A stretch of 6,592 nt of DNA, taken from positions 1-6,592 of the IMG/VR virus record IMGVR_UViG_2547132273_000014. One strand, written 5' to 3'. Source of the DNA: a virus (Duplodnaviria; Heunggongvirae; Uroviricota; Caudoviricetes). Below the pieces are notes generated by a model. The model had not been told where the DNA came from and did not search any database. It saw only the letters and a program-made list of their open reading frames with translations. Below, in pieces: positions 157 through 6,592 of this stretch. Both the position numbers and the translations under genes were made by a program. Each line of letters begins with the position of its first letter. The first letter of the stretch is position 1.

Positions 157-209
157 TCGGTAGGCCGGATCAGGCGTTACACCACATCCGGCACTTTTCC
201 CTTTGCACA

Positions 210-236
210 AACGCCACCTTTTCGGTGGCGTTTTTT
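210..236. terminator. Rho-independent terminator shared by convergent rpoD and mug
   Basis: GC-rich stem AACGCCACC (210-218) / GGTGGCGTT (224-232) with 5-nt loop, then T6 (231-236) on the plus strand; the complementary A/T run gives a weaker U-tract on the minus strand just after the mug stop (235-237). A second hairpin (GCCGGAT 164-170 / ATCCGGC 186-192) lies upstream. Confidence 0.7.
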
Positions 237-741
237 ATCGCCCACGCACTACCAGCGCCTGGTCCAGTTCCCGATACGCCTCAACCAGTTTCTCCAGTGA
301 AACGCGACTTAAACCGCTGGGATTTGGCAGTACCCAAATCTGCGTCGAACCAATAGTGAGCGTTTGCTTCCCCCACTGTGCACCGCGTTGGCTGAATCCT
401 TGCTCAAACGCCTGTTTGCCCAGAATTGCCAACGCTTGTGGTTGGTAATCTTCAATTTTTTCAATCAGCTTACGCCCGCCTGCGTGCAGCTCCTGCTTTG
501 AAACTTCATTGGCTTGCACTGTTGGACGGTCTACAAGTTTGGTGACACCACAACGATAATCCAGCAGATGCTGTGCCTCCTGCGGCTTCAACTGACGGTC
601 GGTAAACCCAGCCTGATATATCACCTTCCAGAAGCGATTTGCCGGATGAGCAAAGGGAAAACCAGTTCCGGCGGATGAAAGACCAGGATTGATACCGCAA
701 AACACAACCCGTAACCCTGGAGCCAAAATATCCTCAACCAT
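235..741 (-). CDS. mug: G/U mismatch-specific DNA glycosylase (Mug)
   Basis: 168-aa [43 protein letters not shown]... matches my recollection of E. coli Mug in length and sequence; it sits convergent to rpoD, as in the E. coli chromosome. Confidence 0.9.
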
Positions 742-941: not shown

Positions 942-949
942 TATCTATC

Positions 950-986
950 AAGGGGTTACGTTAACAGCGTGACCCCTTCGTTTTTT
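950..986 (+). terminator. Rho-independent terminator following the tRNA
   Basis: Stem 950-960 pairs with 968-978 (AAGGGGTTACG / CGTGACCCCTT, one G-U pair), 7-nt loop, then CG + T6 at 981-986. Confidence 0.55.
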
Positions 987-987
987 C

Positions 988-1007
988 TAGGATACCTATA
1001 GGATACC
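988..1007. repeat. Tandem direct repeat TAGGATACC-TA-TAGGATACC (11-bp period)
   Basis: Exact 9-mer at 988-996 and 999-1007, immediately after the tRNA terminator. Candidate recombinase or arm-type binding site at the island boundary; function not established. Confidence 0.45.
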
Positions 1008-1266
1008 GTGACAGAGTATAAGCAGGTATAAAAACAACAAGTTACGCAACATCATACCTGTCATGAAACTTTAACTATCCGACATGATAGCTGGTCGATG
1101 ATCACGGATAATCCGTTATGTGGATCCCCATATCGGCATCAGGCCCACCAGCGTGAAGCGTTTTTCATTTTTCGCGGGTATAAAAAATCGATGGGGCTGG
1201 CAGTCCGGAAGACGTCAGGGTACAGAGATTTGACCCGCCCCTCCCTGTGCATGGGCACAATAAGTA

Positions 1267-1292
1267 ACCGAAGGCGGAATTCCGCCCTCGGT
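1267..1292. promoter_or_regulatory. 26-bp near-perfect palindrome (core GGCGGAATTCCGCC)
   Basis: ACCGAAGGCGGAATTCCGCCCTCGGT; 14-bp perfect core at 1273-1286, arms extend to 13 bp with one mismatched pair (1272/1287). No adjacent U-tract on either strand, so it is not an intrinsic terminator. Confidence 0.4.
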
Positions 1293-1326
1293 ACTCACAT
1301 ATGAGAAACGATATTTCTTCCTCTGA

Positions 1327-1397
1327 TACCCAAAATATGGGTATCACAAGTAACCCCCAAAATCTGGGTGTTGCTCTTACTACCCAAACTACGGGTA
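1327..1397. promoter_or_regulatory. Array of three 17-bp palindromic operator-like sites (YACCC-N7-GGGTR) at an exact 27-bp period
   Basis: TACCCAAAATATGGGTA (1327-1343), CCCCCAAAATCTGGGTG (1354-1370), TACCCAAACTACGGGTA (1381-1397). The centre-to-centre spacing is 27 bp twice and the spacers are A/T-rich. Confidence 0.5.
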
Positions 1398-1417
1398 GTT
1401 TCCGTAATTTCATGGTC

Positions 1418-1464
1418 GAGTTGCAGATCTGCAACTCACCCACCAGCCAACGCAATTTTGCGTT
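1418..1464. promoter_or_regulatory. 20-bp perfect palindrome GAGTTGCAGATCTGCAACTC (1418-1437) plus 7-2-7 inverted repeat AACGCAA-TT-TTGCGTT (1449-1464)
   Basis: Both are exact in the sequence and lie 20-65 bp downstream of the stop of the 126-aa minus-strand ORF. Neither is followed by a U-tract. Confidence 0.45.
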
Positions 1465-1482
1465 ATCGGGAATATCAGCAAG

Positions 1483-1863
1483 TTACCGCCGCAGCCGTTC
1501 CGGCTTCTTCCACTGGTAAGTATTTTTCGCGCTCTCCCTCCGTTGTTGAGAACGGCGACGGTATGCCAGCAACTCAAGGACTCTGGTTCGTATGTTGCAC
1601 ATATCCACGCCGTTAAGCTCAATACCATCACGGCGCATCACCTCAGCAACAACACGCGCGTAATTTTCGGCTATCACGCTGTCCGGCTGCGTGGCCTCCT
1701 GTTCGCCAGCCTGCTGGCTGATTCCGGTAATACTGCGGATTATCCCGAGCGCTTCGGTCTCGGTCATGGTCATGGTCATGGCCTCCATAGTGATGGCGGG
1801 TCCTCCTTGTGGGGTGCCCTGCCACGGGGCGGGAGCATCGCGGAAAAAGGCTAGTTTTTGCAT
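1483..1863 (-). CDS. Hypothetical protein downstream of the small terminase gene (start uncertain, likely internal at about 1773-1788)
   Basis: 126-aa ORF in the same orientation as the packaging genes, with a basic C-terminus. The first ATG (1863) lacks an RBS. A GGAGG at 1783-1787 precedes three tandem in-frame ATGs formed by (ATGACC)x3 at 1762-1779; the ATG at 1771-1773 has the best spacing (8 nt). I recognise no protein family. Confidence 0.4.
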   Translation of the reverse strand: MQKLAFFRDAPAPWQGTPQGGPAITMEAMTMTMTETEALGIIRSITGISQQAGEQEATQPDSVIAENYARVVAEVMRRDGIELNGVDMCNIRTRVLELLAYRRRSQQRRESAKNTYQWKKPERLRR

Positions 1864-2024
1864 TTTTATTCGTCATCACCACCAATGCAATATATTGATA
1901 TGACTTGATGTTTTATTTTTCGGTGTCGATTTCGATTGTTTTTTGTTCATCACTGACGCATAACGCCCACCAGCGCAACGCTGAAAGCCAGTCAGTAAAC
2001 TGGCTTCGGTCATTGTGCACTACG

Positions 2025-2574: not shown

Positions 2575-2745
2575 CCAACTTGGTCAAGGTTTCAGGTTGG
2601 TGTGTTGGTGTTATCTTTCCCTTTTTATTCATGGAGATAGAGCAAACAACAAAACCACCACCACCACCCTGAAAAAGCTCATAAATAGCGAAAAACCGCG
2701 AGGTCGCCGCCCCGTAGCCTACCGGATCGCCGGAAAGGACCCGCC
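2575..2745 (-). other. Lambda-type cos site: cosQ-like and cosN (12-nt cohesive end GGGCGGCGACCT, 2701-2712) with a divergent cosB-like region toward the TerS start
   Basis: The minus strand reads GGGTCCTTTCCGGCGATCCGGTAGGCTACG-GGGCGGCGACCT-CGCGGTTTTTCGCTATTTATGA, which is almost base-for-base the lambda right-end/cos/left-end sequence as I recall it (lambda: ...GGGTCCTTTCCGGTGATCCGACAGGTTACG GGGCGGCGACCT CGCGGGTTTTCGCTATTTATGA). The 130 bp between cosN and the TerS start do not resemble lambda cosB. Confidence 0.8.
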
Positions 2746-2768
2746 AGCCAGAACGGGCCCTAATTTCA

Positions 2769-4772: not shown

Positions 4773-5195
4773 TTAAAACGGTATATTATCGCCGTACGGA
4801 TCATCATTCCCCGACTGTTGTTTTGCCCTGTTCAGTGCGTCAGTAGCCTGGCCCTGTTGACCTTTTTTGCCGCCCGGTCGCGCCGTTCTGGCACTGATTA
4901 CACTGTCTGCGATAACCTGCCAGCCCTGCCGCGTTTCGCCGTTCTGGCCTGTCCACTGGCTTACCTGCATGTTACCCGCCACGCTCACCAGTTCGCCTTT
5001 GTGGTGTTTTGCCAGTGCGTCGGCCTGTCTGCCAAACGCCAGGACGGATAACCACATCGTCGCCGTTCCGTCATCTGCCTGGCTGCACGGAAGTGGGACC
5101 GCCATACTCGCCATCGTCATTTGTGTACCCTTGCTGGTGGTCTTTAACTGCGGGTCAGCCACCAGCCGCCCGTAAGCCGCTATCTGTGCTGTCAT
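4773..5195 (-). CDS. Single-stranded DNA-binding protein (SSB)-like, with acidic C-terminal ...DNIPF tail
   Basis: 140 aa. The OB-fold region resembles E. coli SSB as I recall it: IAAYGRLVADPQLKTT against VILVGNLGQDPEVRYM; MWLSVLAFGRQADALAKHHKGELVSVAGNMQVSQWTGQNGETRQ against [45 protein letters not shown]. A Gly/Gln-rich linker leads to a terminal DDPYGDNIPF, compared with SSB DDDIPF. The start ATG overlaps the stop of the upstream ORF (ATGA). Confidence 0.72.
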   Translation of the reverse strand: MTAQIAAYGRLVADPQLKTTSKGTQMTMASMAVPLPCSQADDGTATMWLSVLAFGRQADALAKHHKGELVSVAGNMQVSQWTGQNGETRQGWQVIADSVISARTARPGGKKGQQGQATDALNRAKQQSGNDDPYGDNIPF

Positions 5196-5437: not shown

Positions 5438-5482
5438 AGGCTTTATCTCACAGCAGTAAATTAAAATTTTTGCGTTTTAACC

Positions 5483-5712
5483 CTTCACCTGTTCACCTTT
5501 TGATATTTTATCTTTTAATTCATAATGTTAAGGGGTGAACAGTTTCACAAAAACTATTCACCAACTGTTCACCACTGTTCACCCTTGAAGCTCAATAAAC
5601 AATCAAAAAGGTGAACAGTGAATAGTTTGGTGAACAGTTCATAAATAACTGTTCACCCTATAACATACTGATACAAAAGATATTTATGACAGGGTGAACA
5701 GTGGTGAACAGT
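5483..5712. repeat. Iteron array: at least 9 perfect copies of TGTTCACC / GGTGAACA (10-bp unit ACTGTTCACC) in both orientations; P4 ori/crr-like primase-binding repeats
   Basis: Forward TGTTCACC at 5490, 5566, 5576 and 5650. Reverse GGTGAACA at 5534, 5610, 5629, 5693 and 5703. Degenerate copies at 5483-5489, 5555-5562 and 5618-5625. Interspersed A/T-rich tracts (5461-5480, 5498-5530). The array sits directly after the stop of the primase/helicase gene. Confidence 0.8.
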
Positions 5713-5724
5713 TATTCCATAAGT

Positions 5725-6592
5725 TTAATTTTTGCTATCGTCATTAGTGACCGATACACATGATGGCATCCAGTCTTCTGATTCCTCCGTCAGTGTCACG
5801 TTTGAACGCAAACCGTGCTTCGTTTTCCGTTTCATATACTCCCTGCCATATTCCGCCATTGCCCCCGGCATATCTTTACCGAAGCGCGTCAGTGTTACAG
5901 GTTTACCAAACCCATGTGCCCTCATATAAGCCAGATAGGCATGATAGAGATACCTGCGTGGGCTGAATGGCACAATTTCAGCATTACCCACTAACAGGCC
6001 ATCACACATTACCGACGCCATGAGATAGCCGCAGAAGTCCACCAGCGAATCCCCCTCTCGCTTTATCGCCAGTGCTTCTTCAGATTTCTGCTGCTCATAT
6101 AACAGGCGTCTGGCTTCGTCCTGGTCAGCAAACCGTGTAAGCAGATGGCGAATCACTACCGCCAACTCACCTTCTATTTTTTCCGCCAGCATTGGATCGC
6201 GTTCGTTCTCCGGTACAACTTCCGAAAAATTGAATATCACCCGACGACGTGAGATCCCCCCGCTGCGGTCACTGAATGACATGGCGTTATTGTTAACCGC
6301 CAGCACTACTGCCGGAATACGCGTTGAGTAGGGGGCTTTGTGTTTCGGGTCAATTGCCACCTTGTCACCGCCTGTAATGGCCTTAATTCCTGCCCCATCA
6401 CCAGCGTAGCGGGTCATATCCGGCATGATAATCAGCGAAAAGCCAACCACTAACGCGCGTTCCCTTGCATCTTCCAGCGCCTTCATGCTTGCCGATACTG
6501 TGTTGGCCTTACCCGCCAGCATGGTGCAAATCTCCGCCATCACGCTTTTACCACTTCCCCCTGGACCTGTTACCTCAATGAATAACTGCCAG
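5725..6592 (-). CDS. P4-alpha-like primase/helicase, C-terminal helicase portion (5'-partial; continues beyond window end)
   Basis: The open frame runs to the window edge. Its translation contains the Walker A motif in ...WQLFIEVTGPGGSGKSVMAEICTMLAG... and downstream helicase-like motifs (LIIMPDMTRYAGD). It is immediately followed by the TGTTCACC iterons that are the recognition repeats of P4 alpha. The ORF-track start at 6543 is an internal GTG. Confidence 0.8.
   Translation of the reverse strand, partial: WQLFIEVTGPGGSGKSVMAEICTMLAGKANTVSASMKALEDARERALVVGFSLIIMPDMTRYAGDGAGIKAITGGDKVAIDPKHKAPYSTRIPAVVLAVNNNAMSFSDRSGGISRRRVIFNFSEVVPENERDPMLAEKIEGELAVVIRHLLTRFADQDEARRLLYEQQKSEEALAIKREGDSLVDFCGYLMASVMCDGLLVGNAEIVPFSPRRYLYHAYLAYMRAHGFGKPVTLTRFGKDMPGAMAEYGREYMKRKTKHGLRSNVTLTEESEDWMPSCVSVTNDDSKN

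What the first reader, a model, noticed from the sequence alone, without database searches (positions are those of the whole stretch)
1267..1464. Cluster of long palindromes flanking the operator array (26-bp near-palindrome, 20-bp perfect palindrome, 7-2-7 inverted repeat)
ACCGAAGGCGGAATTCCGCCCTCGGT (1267-1292), GAGTTGCAGATCTGCAACTC (1418-1437, perfect) and AACGCAA-TT-TTGCGTT (1449-1464) lie within 200 bp. None has a U-tract, so they are not simple terminators. A perfect 20-bp palindrome is unlikely by chance and suggests a protein recognition site (recombination or resolution site, origin of transfer, or repressor site) or a stable RNA hairpin protecting the 3' end of the packaging operon.
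Basis: seen in the sequence. Interest (0 to 1): 0.5.

Follow-up and report, generated by a model that had tools for sequence, protein, structure and literature searches.

The report
Palindrome-rich tail of a phage satellite operon
The palindromes are real and form the conserved non-coding end of the packaging operon of an E. coli phage satellite (a PICI), most likely a hairpin-forming boundary next to a second DNA-packaging site rather than a repressor or recombination site.

Summary
All three palindromes are at the stated coordinates and are far beyond chance. They are not one site. The window is an EcCICFT073-type PICI inserted at tRNA-Ile. The palindromes fill the non-coding stretch after its last gene (a 93-aa ORF, 1483-1764, minus strand).

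- **26-bp palindrome:** a -24.6 kcal/mol hairpin. Its one mismatch is G.U on the operon strand, and a U-rich tail follows, so it looks like a terminator.
- **7-2-7 repeat:** one copy of a repeated unit. The unit is an IHF-consensus box overlapping the ORF stop codon plus a palindrome at a fixed distance. Its stems covary across 31 units in related islands.
- **20-bp palindrome and three ACCC-N7-GGGT dyads:** a conserved module.
- **Chi site:** sits between the 20-bp palindrome and the 7-2-7 repeat.
- **Second cos site:** an SfV/ST64B-phage-type cos lies 20 bp beyond the cluster.

The region occurs in 1168 of 5426 complete E. coli genomes, in several PICI types and at different att sites. It is absent from phage records and from Rfam.

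My best reading is a BIME-like boundary element that forms hairpins and binds IHF (confidence about 0.4). A pair of recombination sites is excluded. A repressor operator array is unlikely.

The parts
1267..1292 (-). 26-bp GC-rich near-palindrome. On the operon strand it reads ACCGAGGGCGGAAUUCCGCCUUCGGU followed by UUACUUAUUGU, which makes it a terminator-like hairpin.
   Evidence: -24.6 kcal/mol, z = -6.5. The single mismatch is G.U on the minus strand and A.C on the plus strand (read from sequence). It is conserved next to the SfV-type cos in related islands.
1325..1400 (.). Three dyads with an ACCC-N7-GGGT core, spaced 27 nt: 1325-1345 GATACCC..GGGTATC, 1354-1370 and 1380-1398. This is part of 'module B'.
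   Evidence: family D1. One search shows that the stem of the first dyad changes GATACCC/GGGTATC to GATCCCC/GGGGATC in relatives and that its loop varies. The other two dyads are nearly invariant.
1418..1437 (.). Perfect 20-bp palindrome GAGTTGCAGATCTGCAACTC (extends imperfectly to 1413-1442). Part of module B.
   Evidence: -15.3 kcal/mol. It is 90-95% conserved as a block with the three dyads, and some islands carry the block twice.
1440..1447 (-). Chi octamer, 5'-GCTGGTGG-3' on the minus strand.
   Evidence: The orientation is the active one for RecBCD entering the DNA end made at the cos at 1193-1202. This is an inference from the rule stated in PMC12315714.
1449..1464 (.). 7-2-7 inverted repeat AACGCAA-TT-TTGCGTT. 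It is the palindrome part of repeat 'unit A'.
   Evidence: The palindrome centre lies 27.5-29.5 nt from the box start in 37 of 38 units (31.0 in one). The stems covary across units.
1473..1485 (-). Box TAACTTGCTGATA. It matches the IHF consensus YAANNNNTTGATW with one mismatch. Its TAA is the stop codon of the 93-aa ORF.
   Evidence: Relatives carry perfect matches, and arrays hold 1 to 7 or more boxes.
1483..1764 (-). Last gene of the island operon. It encodes a 93-aa helical protein of unknown function (phrog_1561), and the palindrome region always follows it.
1163..1245 (-). SfI/SfII/SfV/ST64B-type (HNH-dependent) cos site. The cohesive-end 10-mer TGCCAGCCCC lies at 1193-1202 on the minus strand.
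   Evidence: The SfI cohesive end is TGCCCGCCCC (PMC3636060). Relatives L010 and L011 carry that exact 10-mer.

Best explanation
The cluster is the conserved non-coding tail of the late (packaging) operon of an EcCICFT073-type phage-inducible chromosomal island. It is a composite boundary element, not a single protein site.

Reading along the operon (minus) strand, the order is:
1. the stop codon of the last gene, embedded in an IHF-type box;
2. a small palindrome at a fixed distance from the box (the 7-2-7 repeat);
3. a Chi site;
4. the 20-bp palindrome and three related dyads;
5. a strong GC-rich hairpin with a U-rich tail (the 26-bp palindrome);
6. about 20 bp further on, a second cos site of SfV/ST64B phage type, and then att and the tRNA.

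I propose that the palindromes act through self-complementarity: as hairpins in the transcript, and possibly as extruded DNA. They would end and 3'-protect the late transcript and insulate cos, attP and int from read-through. IHF would bind the box. This resembles E. coli BIME/RIP elements (REP palindromes plus an IHF site at operon ends).

Shown here: the anatomy, conservation, covariation, enrichment of the IHF consensus, and the terminator-like features. Inferred: actual termination, IHF binding, and any role at the DNA level.
For: **Position and context**
- The cluster lies directly after the last operon gene in every island examined, always in the same orientation. The islands are of Rpp type, cf-PICI type, protease-capsid type and helper-embedded type, at tRNA-Ile, thiM, phoQ, ydgV, clpS and inside prophage genes.
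- It is present in 1168 of 5426 complete E. coli genomes. It is absent from 50,697 phage records.

**Structure**
- The stretch folds far better than shuffles on either strand.
- The 26-bp hairpin is found by the terminator scan on the operon strand only. Its single mismatch is G.U on that strand.

**Selection for pairing**
- Across 31 aligned units, the palindrome paired with the box keeps pairing while changing sequence. There are 38 doubly changed cells against 15.4 +/- 3.0 in shuffles (0 of 500 reach it). The covariation score is 0.335 against 0.113, and it falls when the partner column is slid.
- One dyad of module B shows GATACCC/GGGTATC changing to GATCCCC/GGGGATC, with free loop variation.

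**IHF box**
- The consensus occurs 42 times in operon orientation against 2 in the opposite orientation in 20.2 kb of such tails (2.1 per kb). In 120 kb of upstream coding DNA it occurs at 0.15 per kb.
- The variable positions of the box are the N positions of the consensus.
- Box-to-box spacing is 48-54 bp within arrays.

**Other**
- No promoter-like site overlaps the palindromes.
- There is no second copy at the other island end.
Against: - No transcript data were available, so termination is not shown.
- The U-tail is imperfect (5 T in the first 8 nt), and part of it can pair into the extended stem.
- The helper-embedded relative K56 keeps the GC hairpin but has no T-rich tail.
- Many unit palindromes in relatives have a centre of only 0-2 nt (83 of 160). 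They are short and A/T-centred, for example CTCAATTTGAG. That makes weak RNA hairpins and points to symmetry at the DNA level.
- Mismatch types show no strand bias overall: G.T 44 against A.C 43.
- Module B is so conserved that it gives almost no covariation test.
- Covariation could also arise from template-switch 'correction' of quasi-palindromes, without selection.
- The window's own box has one mismatch to the IHF consensus.
Confidence: 0.4

Rival explanations
1. It is a cos-proximal DNA-end module. When the island is cut at the SfV-type cos (1193-1202), the palindromes, IHF box and Chi form the last 60-290 bp of the right end of the packaged DNA. That end is packaged last, exposed to RecBCD, and probably injected first. 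In this reading the region works on DNA: IHF bending plus extrudable palindromes help terminase stop and cut, or help the ends circularise, and Chi protects the end.
For: - An SfV/ST64B-type cos, 92-95% identical to the phage sites, lies 20 bp from the 26-bp palindrome.
- The GC hairpin and module B travel together with this cos as one block in many islands.
- Chi at 1440-1447 is in the active orientation. In the window, 5 Chi lie on the minus strand against 1 on the plus strand. Chi density in these tails is 2.35 per kb. PMC12315714 describes Chi clustered at the right end of ST64B-like phages.
- The palindromes are symmetric through an A/T-rich centre.
- IHF boxes are phased at about 5 helical turns.
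Against: - Homology to phage cos stops at 1245. In the phages that position holds an HNH gene, so the palindromes are not needed for phage cos function.
- EDL933- and RM9245-type islands have arrays with no recognisable cos beside them.
- Unit number varies from 1 to 7 or more.
- No known terminase system uses such an array.
Confidence: 0.2
2. The palindromes are operators or recognition sites for a sequence-specific protein of the island or the helper. Candidates are the 93-aa protein, an AlpA-type regulator or a small terminase.
For: - The three dyads share one core (ACCC-N7-GGGT) at a regular 27-bp spacing.
- EDL933-type arrays repeat a different core (CCTCAATTTGAGG), which looks like a change of specificity.
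- Module B is conserved in loops as well as stems.
- The 93-aa gene is always adjacent and has an invariant basic C-terminus.
Against: - Within one island the palindromes have unrelated stems.
- The 93-aa protein is 80-100% identical across islands whose palindromes differ.
- The region occurs in islands with different packaging and regulatory genes.
- No promoter-like site overlaps it.
- The 93-aa model has no recognisable DNA-binding fold: the best Foldseek E-value is 1.9.
Confidence: 0.15
3. It has no function of its own. It is a family of quasi-palindromic repeats that duplicated and diversified in a tolerated non-coding gap. Replication template switching keeps the repeats self-complementary, and they serve at most as break points for module exchange between islands.
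For: - Unit number is highly variable and the order is mosaic. Homology breaks coincide with palindrome edges, and some islands carry duplicated modules.
- The palindromes are perfect through their centres.
Against: - The conserved box keeps exactly the IHF-consensus positions while the rest of the unit diverges, and the box-to-palindrome distance is fixed.
- The region is retained in about a fifth of complete E. coli genomes, across island types.
Confidence: 0.12
4. It is a recombination, resolution or origin-of-transfer site.
For: Only the presence of long palindromes and an IHF-type box, which such sites often have.
Against: - The rest of the complete island has no partner copy.
- There is no resolvase or relaxase gene.
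- The integrase arm-type direct repeats and a perfect IHF consensus lie next to the tRNA instead, at 982-1002 and 946-958.
- The region is shared by islands with different att sites.
Confidence: 0.03

Closest known systems
BIME / RIP (RIB) elements of E. coli: REP palindromes combined with an IHF-binding motif at the 3' ends of operons
   Same: - Short imperfect palindromes in variable-number arrays in non-coding DNA after the last gene of an operon.
- An IHF-consensus motif inside the repeat unit.
- Possible action both as RNA hairpins (3'-end protection, termination) and as DNA.
The properties of BIMEs are from my own knowledge.
   Different: - No sequence similarity to REP. A genuine REP lies at window 163-237 and looks unrelated (weak naRNA4 match).
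- No Rfam match.
- The units are specific to satellites rather than dispersed in the chromosome.
- The palindrome stems differ from unit to unit.
Intrinsic (Rho-independent) terminators
   Same: The 26-bp element is a GC-rich hairpin at the end of an operon with a U-rich 3' flank on the coding strand.
   Different: - The U-tract is interrupted.
- The other palindromes have no U-tract.
- One relative lacks the tail.
cos sites of PICIs and their helpers: EcCICFT073 cos1/cos2 (lambda type) and the SfV/HK97-type cos
   Same: Same island family. The window holds a lambda-type cosQ/cosN with PICI-type cosB at about 2580-2760, upstream of an rpp-like gene, as described for EcCICFT073 (PMC6092414, PMC6739421). 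It also holds an SfV-type cos at 1163-1245.
   Different: - The palindromes are outside both cos sites.
- They have no counterpart in the phages.
- The two published EcCICFT073 cos sites are both lambda type. Here the second cos is of the HNH-dependent type.
Lambda nut sites (boxA plus boxB hairpin)
   Same: A conserved linear box, a spacer of about 9-10 nt, and a small hairpin whose stem differs between elements. The neighbouring small protein has an arginine-rich end.
   Different: - No boxA consensus.
- The units lie at the 3' end of the operon and are tandemly repeated.
- The palindromes are complementary through the centre, unlike a pentaloop boxB.
This is a resemblance only and was not tested.

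Membership tests
Intrinsic terminator | GC-rich stem-loop at the 3' end of a transcription unit | tested here: met
   Applies to 1267-1292 on the minus strand. 11-15 pairs, -24.6 kcal/mol, about 190 nt after the stop of the last gene.
Intrinsic terminator | Uninterrupted U-tract immediately 3' of the stem | tested here: inconclusive
   The tail UUACUUAUUGU has 5 U in the first 8 nt, and part of it can pair into the stem. The tail is absent in relative K56. The other palindromes have no U-tract.
IHF binding site | Match to WATCAANNNNTTR with an A/T-rich 5' flank | tested here: inconclusive
   The window copy at 1473-1485 matches 12 of 13 positions (ATCAG instead of ATCAA). Related units match perfectly and are about 14-fold enriched overall, or 28-fold per orientation. 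Binding was not tested.
Chi recombination hotspot | Exact octamer 5'-GCTGGTGG-3' oriented so that RecBCD coming from the DNA end meets its 3' side | tested here: met
   The octamer is at 1440-1447 on the minus strand. The orientation relative to both cos sites is inferred from the rule in PMC12315714.
Lambda-type cos (cosQ-cosN-cosB) | cosN GGGCGGCGACCT with flanking cosQ | tested here: not met
   The only match in the window is at 2701-2712. There is none in 1267-1464.
SfV/HK97-type cos | Homology to the HNH-terS intergenic region, including the 10-nt cohesive end | tested here: not met
   The homology covers 1163-1245 only. The palindrome region has no phage match.
REP/BIME | REP consensus sequence, or membership of a known RNA or repeat family | tested here: not met
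   No Rfam family matches in the window or in nine related loci. The unit sequences are unrelated to the REP at 163-237.
Repressor operator array | Repeated identical half-sites overlapping a promoter, with a cognate DNA-binding protein | tested here: inconclusive
   The three dyads share a core. But there is no promoter-like site, no cognate protein was identified, and the adjacent protein has no DNA-binding fold match.
res / oriT / site-specific recombination site | A partner site or a dedicated recombinase or relaxase in the element | tested here: not met
   The complete E2855 island has no second copy and no such gene.
EcCICFT073-type PICI (context) | An integrase-bounded island at an att site, with alpA, P4-alpha-like primase plus iterons, capsid and decoration homologues, an rpp gene downstream of a lambda-like cos, and no tail or lysis genes | tested here: met
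   Pfam and PHROG hits. Island map of the E2855 relative. cos comparison with the published sequences.

The most novel reading that the evidence does not exclude
The 'IHF box + covarying palindrome' units, module B and the oriented Chi sites together form a previously undescribed, satellite-specific DNA element. It would control what happens at the cos-proximal end of satellite DNA. Possible roles are slowing or positioning terminase so that unit-length or multimeric satellite DNA is cut, shielding the RecBCD-exposed and first-injected end, or letting one island be packaged by two unrelated terminase systems (lambda type and HNH type).
Probability: 0.15. Interest if true: 0.7.

Novelty: new variant of a known kind. 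Interest (0 to 1): 0.45.

Why it matters
PICIs are widespread vehicles of virulence and anti-phage genes in E. coli. This non-coding tail is present in about a fifth of complete E. coli genomes, yet the PICI papers I could read do not describe it.

If it is a boundary or terminator element, it defines the 3' end of the late operon and protects cos, attP and int from read-through. That is useful for annotation and for engineering synthetic PICIs.

The adjacent second cos, of a different terminase class, bears on the open question raised by Fillol-Salom et al. 2019 of why some PICIs carry two cos sites. It suggests one island can exploit two helper families.

Tried and rejected
- **Known RNA family:** Rfam at permissive E-values found nothing in the window or in nine related loci.
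- **Coding explanation:** ORFs crossing the region (72 aa on the plus strand, 82-96 aa on the minus strand) have no Pfam or PHROG match. Most relatives have a stop after 26 codons (sequence).
- **Phage origin of the palindromes:** no match in 50,697 phage records, for either the window type or the EDL933 type.
- **Strand of action from mismatch types:** G.T 44 against A.C 43 overall. A unit-only count (2 against 14) is dominated by loop positions of related units, so it is not informative. The operon strand folds better in 33 of 44 relatives (mean -6.4 kcal/mol), but the sequences are related and strand composition differs.
- **Sigma-54 promoter look-alike:** TGG-N9-TTGCA across 1421-1437 (minus strand) was rejected, because the spacing is not conserved in relatives (read).
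- **PurR/LacI-type operator look-alike:** ACGCAAA..TTTGCGT was rejected. The central CG is missing and the spacing is 2 bp short (from my own knowledge).
- **Integron attC-like cores:** only one unit fits GTTRRRY.
- **Function of the 93-aa protein:** a narrow family (37 representatives). The helical model has mean pLDDT 75.6 and no fold match.
- **Two genome-collection scans were wasted:** the protein scan returned no confirmed relative, and the DNA pattern was too loose and returned chance matches.
- **Literature:** the PICI, cf-PICI, helper-embedded PICI and Feiss cos papers do not mention these palindromes.

Full report
**1. Observation**

- 1267-1292 is 12 of 13 pairs with no spacer.
- 1418-1437 is a perfect 20-mer and extends imperfectly to 1413-1442.
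- 1449-1464 is a 7-2-7 inverted repeat.
- Between them lie three 17-nt dyads at 1327, 1354 and 1381, spaced 27 nt.

By my own arithmetic, a perfect 20-bp palindrome is expected about 0.006 times in 6.6 kb. The stretch 1255-1485 folds with z = -8.6 on the minus strand and -7.9 on the plus strand, and none of 200 shuffles reaches it. Single-hairpin energies run from -24.6 to -6.4 kcal/mol.

One statement is wrong. On the minus strand the 26-bp hairpin is followed by UUACUUAUUGU, and the terminator scan picks it up.

**2. Context**

The window covers the end of rpoD, mug and tRNA-Ile(CAU) at 866-941, followed by a mobile island whose genes are all on the minus strand. The island genes are:
- a P4-alpha-like primase C-terminus, followed by GGTGAACAG iterons at 5460-5720;
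- SSB;
- a lambda-E-like capsid protein and a D-like decoration protein;
- an AlpA-like protein;
- a Nu1-like protein (2025-2570);
- a last ORF (1483-1764).

The exact lambda cosN sequence GGGCGGCGACCT lies at 2701-2712. Its cosQ-like and divergent cosB flanks resemble the published EcCICFT073 cos1, upstream of the rpp-like gene (PMC6092414 supplement; PMC6739421). So this is an EcCICFT073-type PICI.

In strain E2855 an island with an identical 945-1500 stretch is about 10 kb long and has its integrase at the far end.

**3. What flanks the cluster**

On the tRNA side, window 1163-1245 is 92-95% identical to the HNH-terS intergenic region of SfII, ST64B and related phages. The SfI cohesive end is TGCCCGCCCC (PMC3636060). 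The window has TGCCAGCCCC at 1193-1202 on the minus strand, and relatives L010 and L011 carry the exact phage 10-mer. Homology to the phages stops at 1245, so the palindromes stand where the phages have the end of the HNH gene.

On the other side is the stop codon of the 93-aa ORF.

**4. Distribution**

- The stretch 1250-1482 has no match in 50,697 phage records.
- It matches 1168 of 5426 complete E. coli genomes, and 488 of them cover at least 80% of it.
- It always follows the 93-aa gene.
- It occurs in islands with different packaging modules: Rpp type, cf-PICI with HNH-TerS-TerL (SMS-3-5, EDL933, A41, APEC37), protease-capsid fusion type, and helper-embedded islands.
- It occurs at different insertion sites.
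- Eighty more loci came from IMG/VR.
- The complete E2855 island has no second copy.

Together with the absence of any resolvase or relaxase gene, this removes the idea of paired recombination sites or an oriT. The integrase arm-type direct repeats (GGATACC x2, 982-1002) and a perfect IHF consensus (946-958) lie next to the tRNA instead.

**5. Anatomy from comparison**

The tail is modular.

*Unit A.* This is a box TAACNNNTTGATW followed by a 9-10-nt spacer and then a palindrome. The palindrome centre lies 27.5-29.5 nt from the box start in 37 of 38 units and at 31.0 in one.
- The first box contains the ORF stop codon.
- Islands carry from one unit (the window: box 1473-1485, palindrome 1449-1464) to seven or more (EDL933). 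Box spacing within arrays is 48-54 nt.
- The box is the IHF consensus YAANNNNTTGATW, and its variable positions are the N positions.
- Perfect matches occur 42 times in operon orientation against 2 in the opposite orientation in 20.2 kb of tails. In 120 kb of upstream coding DNA they occur at 0.15 per kb.
- Palindrome stems differ between units (ACGCAA, GCGCAA, CCTCAA, TCCCCCA, CAGCC, CGGCTCAA and others) but stay complementary. On an alignment of 31 units there are 38 doubly changed cells against 15.4 +/- 3.0 in shuffles (0 of 500). The covariation score is 0.335 against 0.113, with a secondary signal at slide -1 because some units are even-centred.

*Module B.* This is the 20-bp palindrome plus the three dyads. 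It is 90-95% conserved and is sometimes present twice in an island. Only one dyad varies: GATACCC/GGGTATC changes to GATCCCC/GGGGATC, with an intermediate form and free loop changes.

*The GC hairpin.* In most islands it travels with the SfV-type cos.

*Chi.* A Chi octamer lies at 1440-1447 on the minus strand. The window has five minus-strand Chi sites and one plus-strand site, and the tails carry 2.35 Chi per kb.

**6. RNA or DNA?**

For RNA:
- the position right after the stop codon and the constant orientation;
- four stable hairpins in the window;
- the G.U closure of the 26-bp hairpin on the operon strand, plus its U-rich tail.

For DNA:
- the IHF-type box and its fixed geometry;
- the roughly five-turn spacing of the boxes;
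- the Chi sites;
- 83 of 160 distinct palindromes have a centre of 0-2 nt and an A/T-rich middle, which is not what RNA loops require.

Mismatch types show no strand bias (44 against 43). The unit-only count is confounded by loop positions. The two levels are not exclusive. E. coli BIME/RIP elements, the closest analogue I know, combine both (from my own knowledge).

**7. Best explanation and rivals**

I rank first (0.4) a composite boundary element. It would form hairpins that end and protect the late transcript, with the 26-bp palindrome as the terminator-like stop, combined with an IHF-type repeat unit.

Second (0.2) is a cos-proximal DNA-end module. If the island is cut at 1193-1202, the cluster is the last 60-290 bp of the right end, and Chi is oriented as in ST64B-like phages that rely on RecBCD (PMC12315714). 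Against this, the phages need no such sequence, and EDL933- and RM9245-type arrays have no recognisable cos beside them.

Third (0.15) are operators for an unknown protein. The shared dyad core supports this. The lack of a promoter, the unrelated stems within one island, and a conserved neighbouring protein with no DNA-binding fold match speak against it.

A non-functional quasi-palindrome family (0.12) and a recombination or oriT site (0.03) follow.

**8. Novelty**

The PICI literature I could read describes the lambda-type cos sites and Rpp. It does not describe this tail, the box-plus-palindrome units, or an HNH-type second cos in an Rpp-type island. I rate the cluster a new variant of a known kind (operon-end palindromic repeat with an IHF motif) and of moderate interest. 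Function remains untested.

Noticed in passing
window 1163-1245 (cohesive-end 10-mer at 1193-1202, minus strand): A second cos site of SfI/SfII/SfV/ST64B (HNH-dependent) type, 92-95% identical to the phage HNH-terS intergenic region. It sits in an island that also has a lambda-type cos and an rpp gene. This suggests packaging by two unrelated helper families. The cf-PICI relative SMS-3-5 carries it in addition to its own cos-like HNH-terS spacer.
   Followed up: partly
window 2580-2760 (cosN 2701-2712, minus strand): A lambda-type cosQ/cosN with PICI-type divergent cosB (GGTGGTGGTGGTGG run), directly upstream of the Nu1-like (rpp-like) gene at 2025-2570. This matches the published EcCICFT073 cos1 layout.
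   Followed up: partly
window 1145-1152, 1440-1447, 1967-1974, 5159-5166, 6039-6046 (minus strand); 5133-5140 (plus strand): Six Chi octamers in 6.6 kb, five of them on the operon strand. That is the active orientation for RecBCD entering the right end made at either cos. The island has no recognisable recombination or anti-RecBCD gene in the window.
   Followed up: partly
window 1113-1136: A 24-bp near-palindrome, CCGTTATGTGGATCCCCATATCGG (consensus CCGATATGGGGATCCCCATATCGG). It is conserved in sequence across island types with different integrases. In several relatives it is flanked by an inverted pair of Chi sites oriented outward from it, as if a DNA end arose there. Its function is unknown.
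   Followed up: partly
window 1794-1957: A 164-nt stretch 80-88% identical to the last about 200 bp (just before cos) of mEp460-like lambdoid phages, in inverted orientation relative to the island genes. It covers the region upstream of the 93-aa ORF.
   Followed up: no
window 5460-5720: A dense array of GGTGAACAG/CTGTTCACC repeats (P4 type-I iteron sequence) downstream of the primase gene. This is presumably the island replication origin.
   Followed up: no
window 946-1002: A perfect IHF consensus (TAACCCCTTGATA, 958-946 on the minus strand) overlaps a terminator-like hairpin (950-978 plus a T-run) just after the tRNA. It is followed by a direct repeat, GGATACC-TATA-GGATACC, that is likely the integrase arm-type site.
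   Followed up: no
L006 2472-2554 (E. coli SMS-3-5): A related cf-PICI is inserted next to thiM. The TPP riboswitch match there scores below the gathering threshold (35 against 54 bits).
   Followed up: no
L009 2700-3150 (EDL933) and L055, L041, L016: Long arrays of the box-plus-palindrome unit (up to seven or more units). In EDL933- and RM9245-type tails they are interspersed with a Fur-box-like AT-rich segment (AATGATCATTATGATTAC).
   Followed up: no
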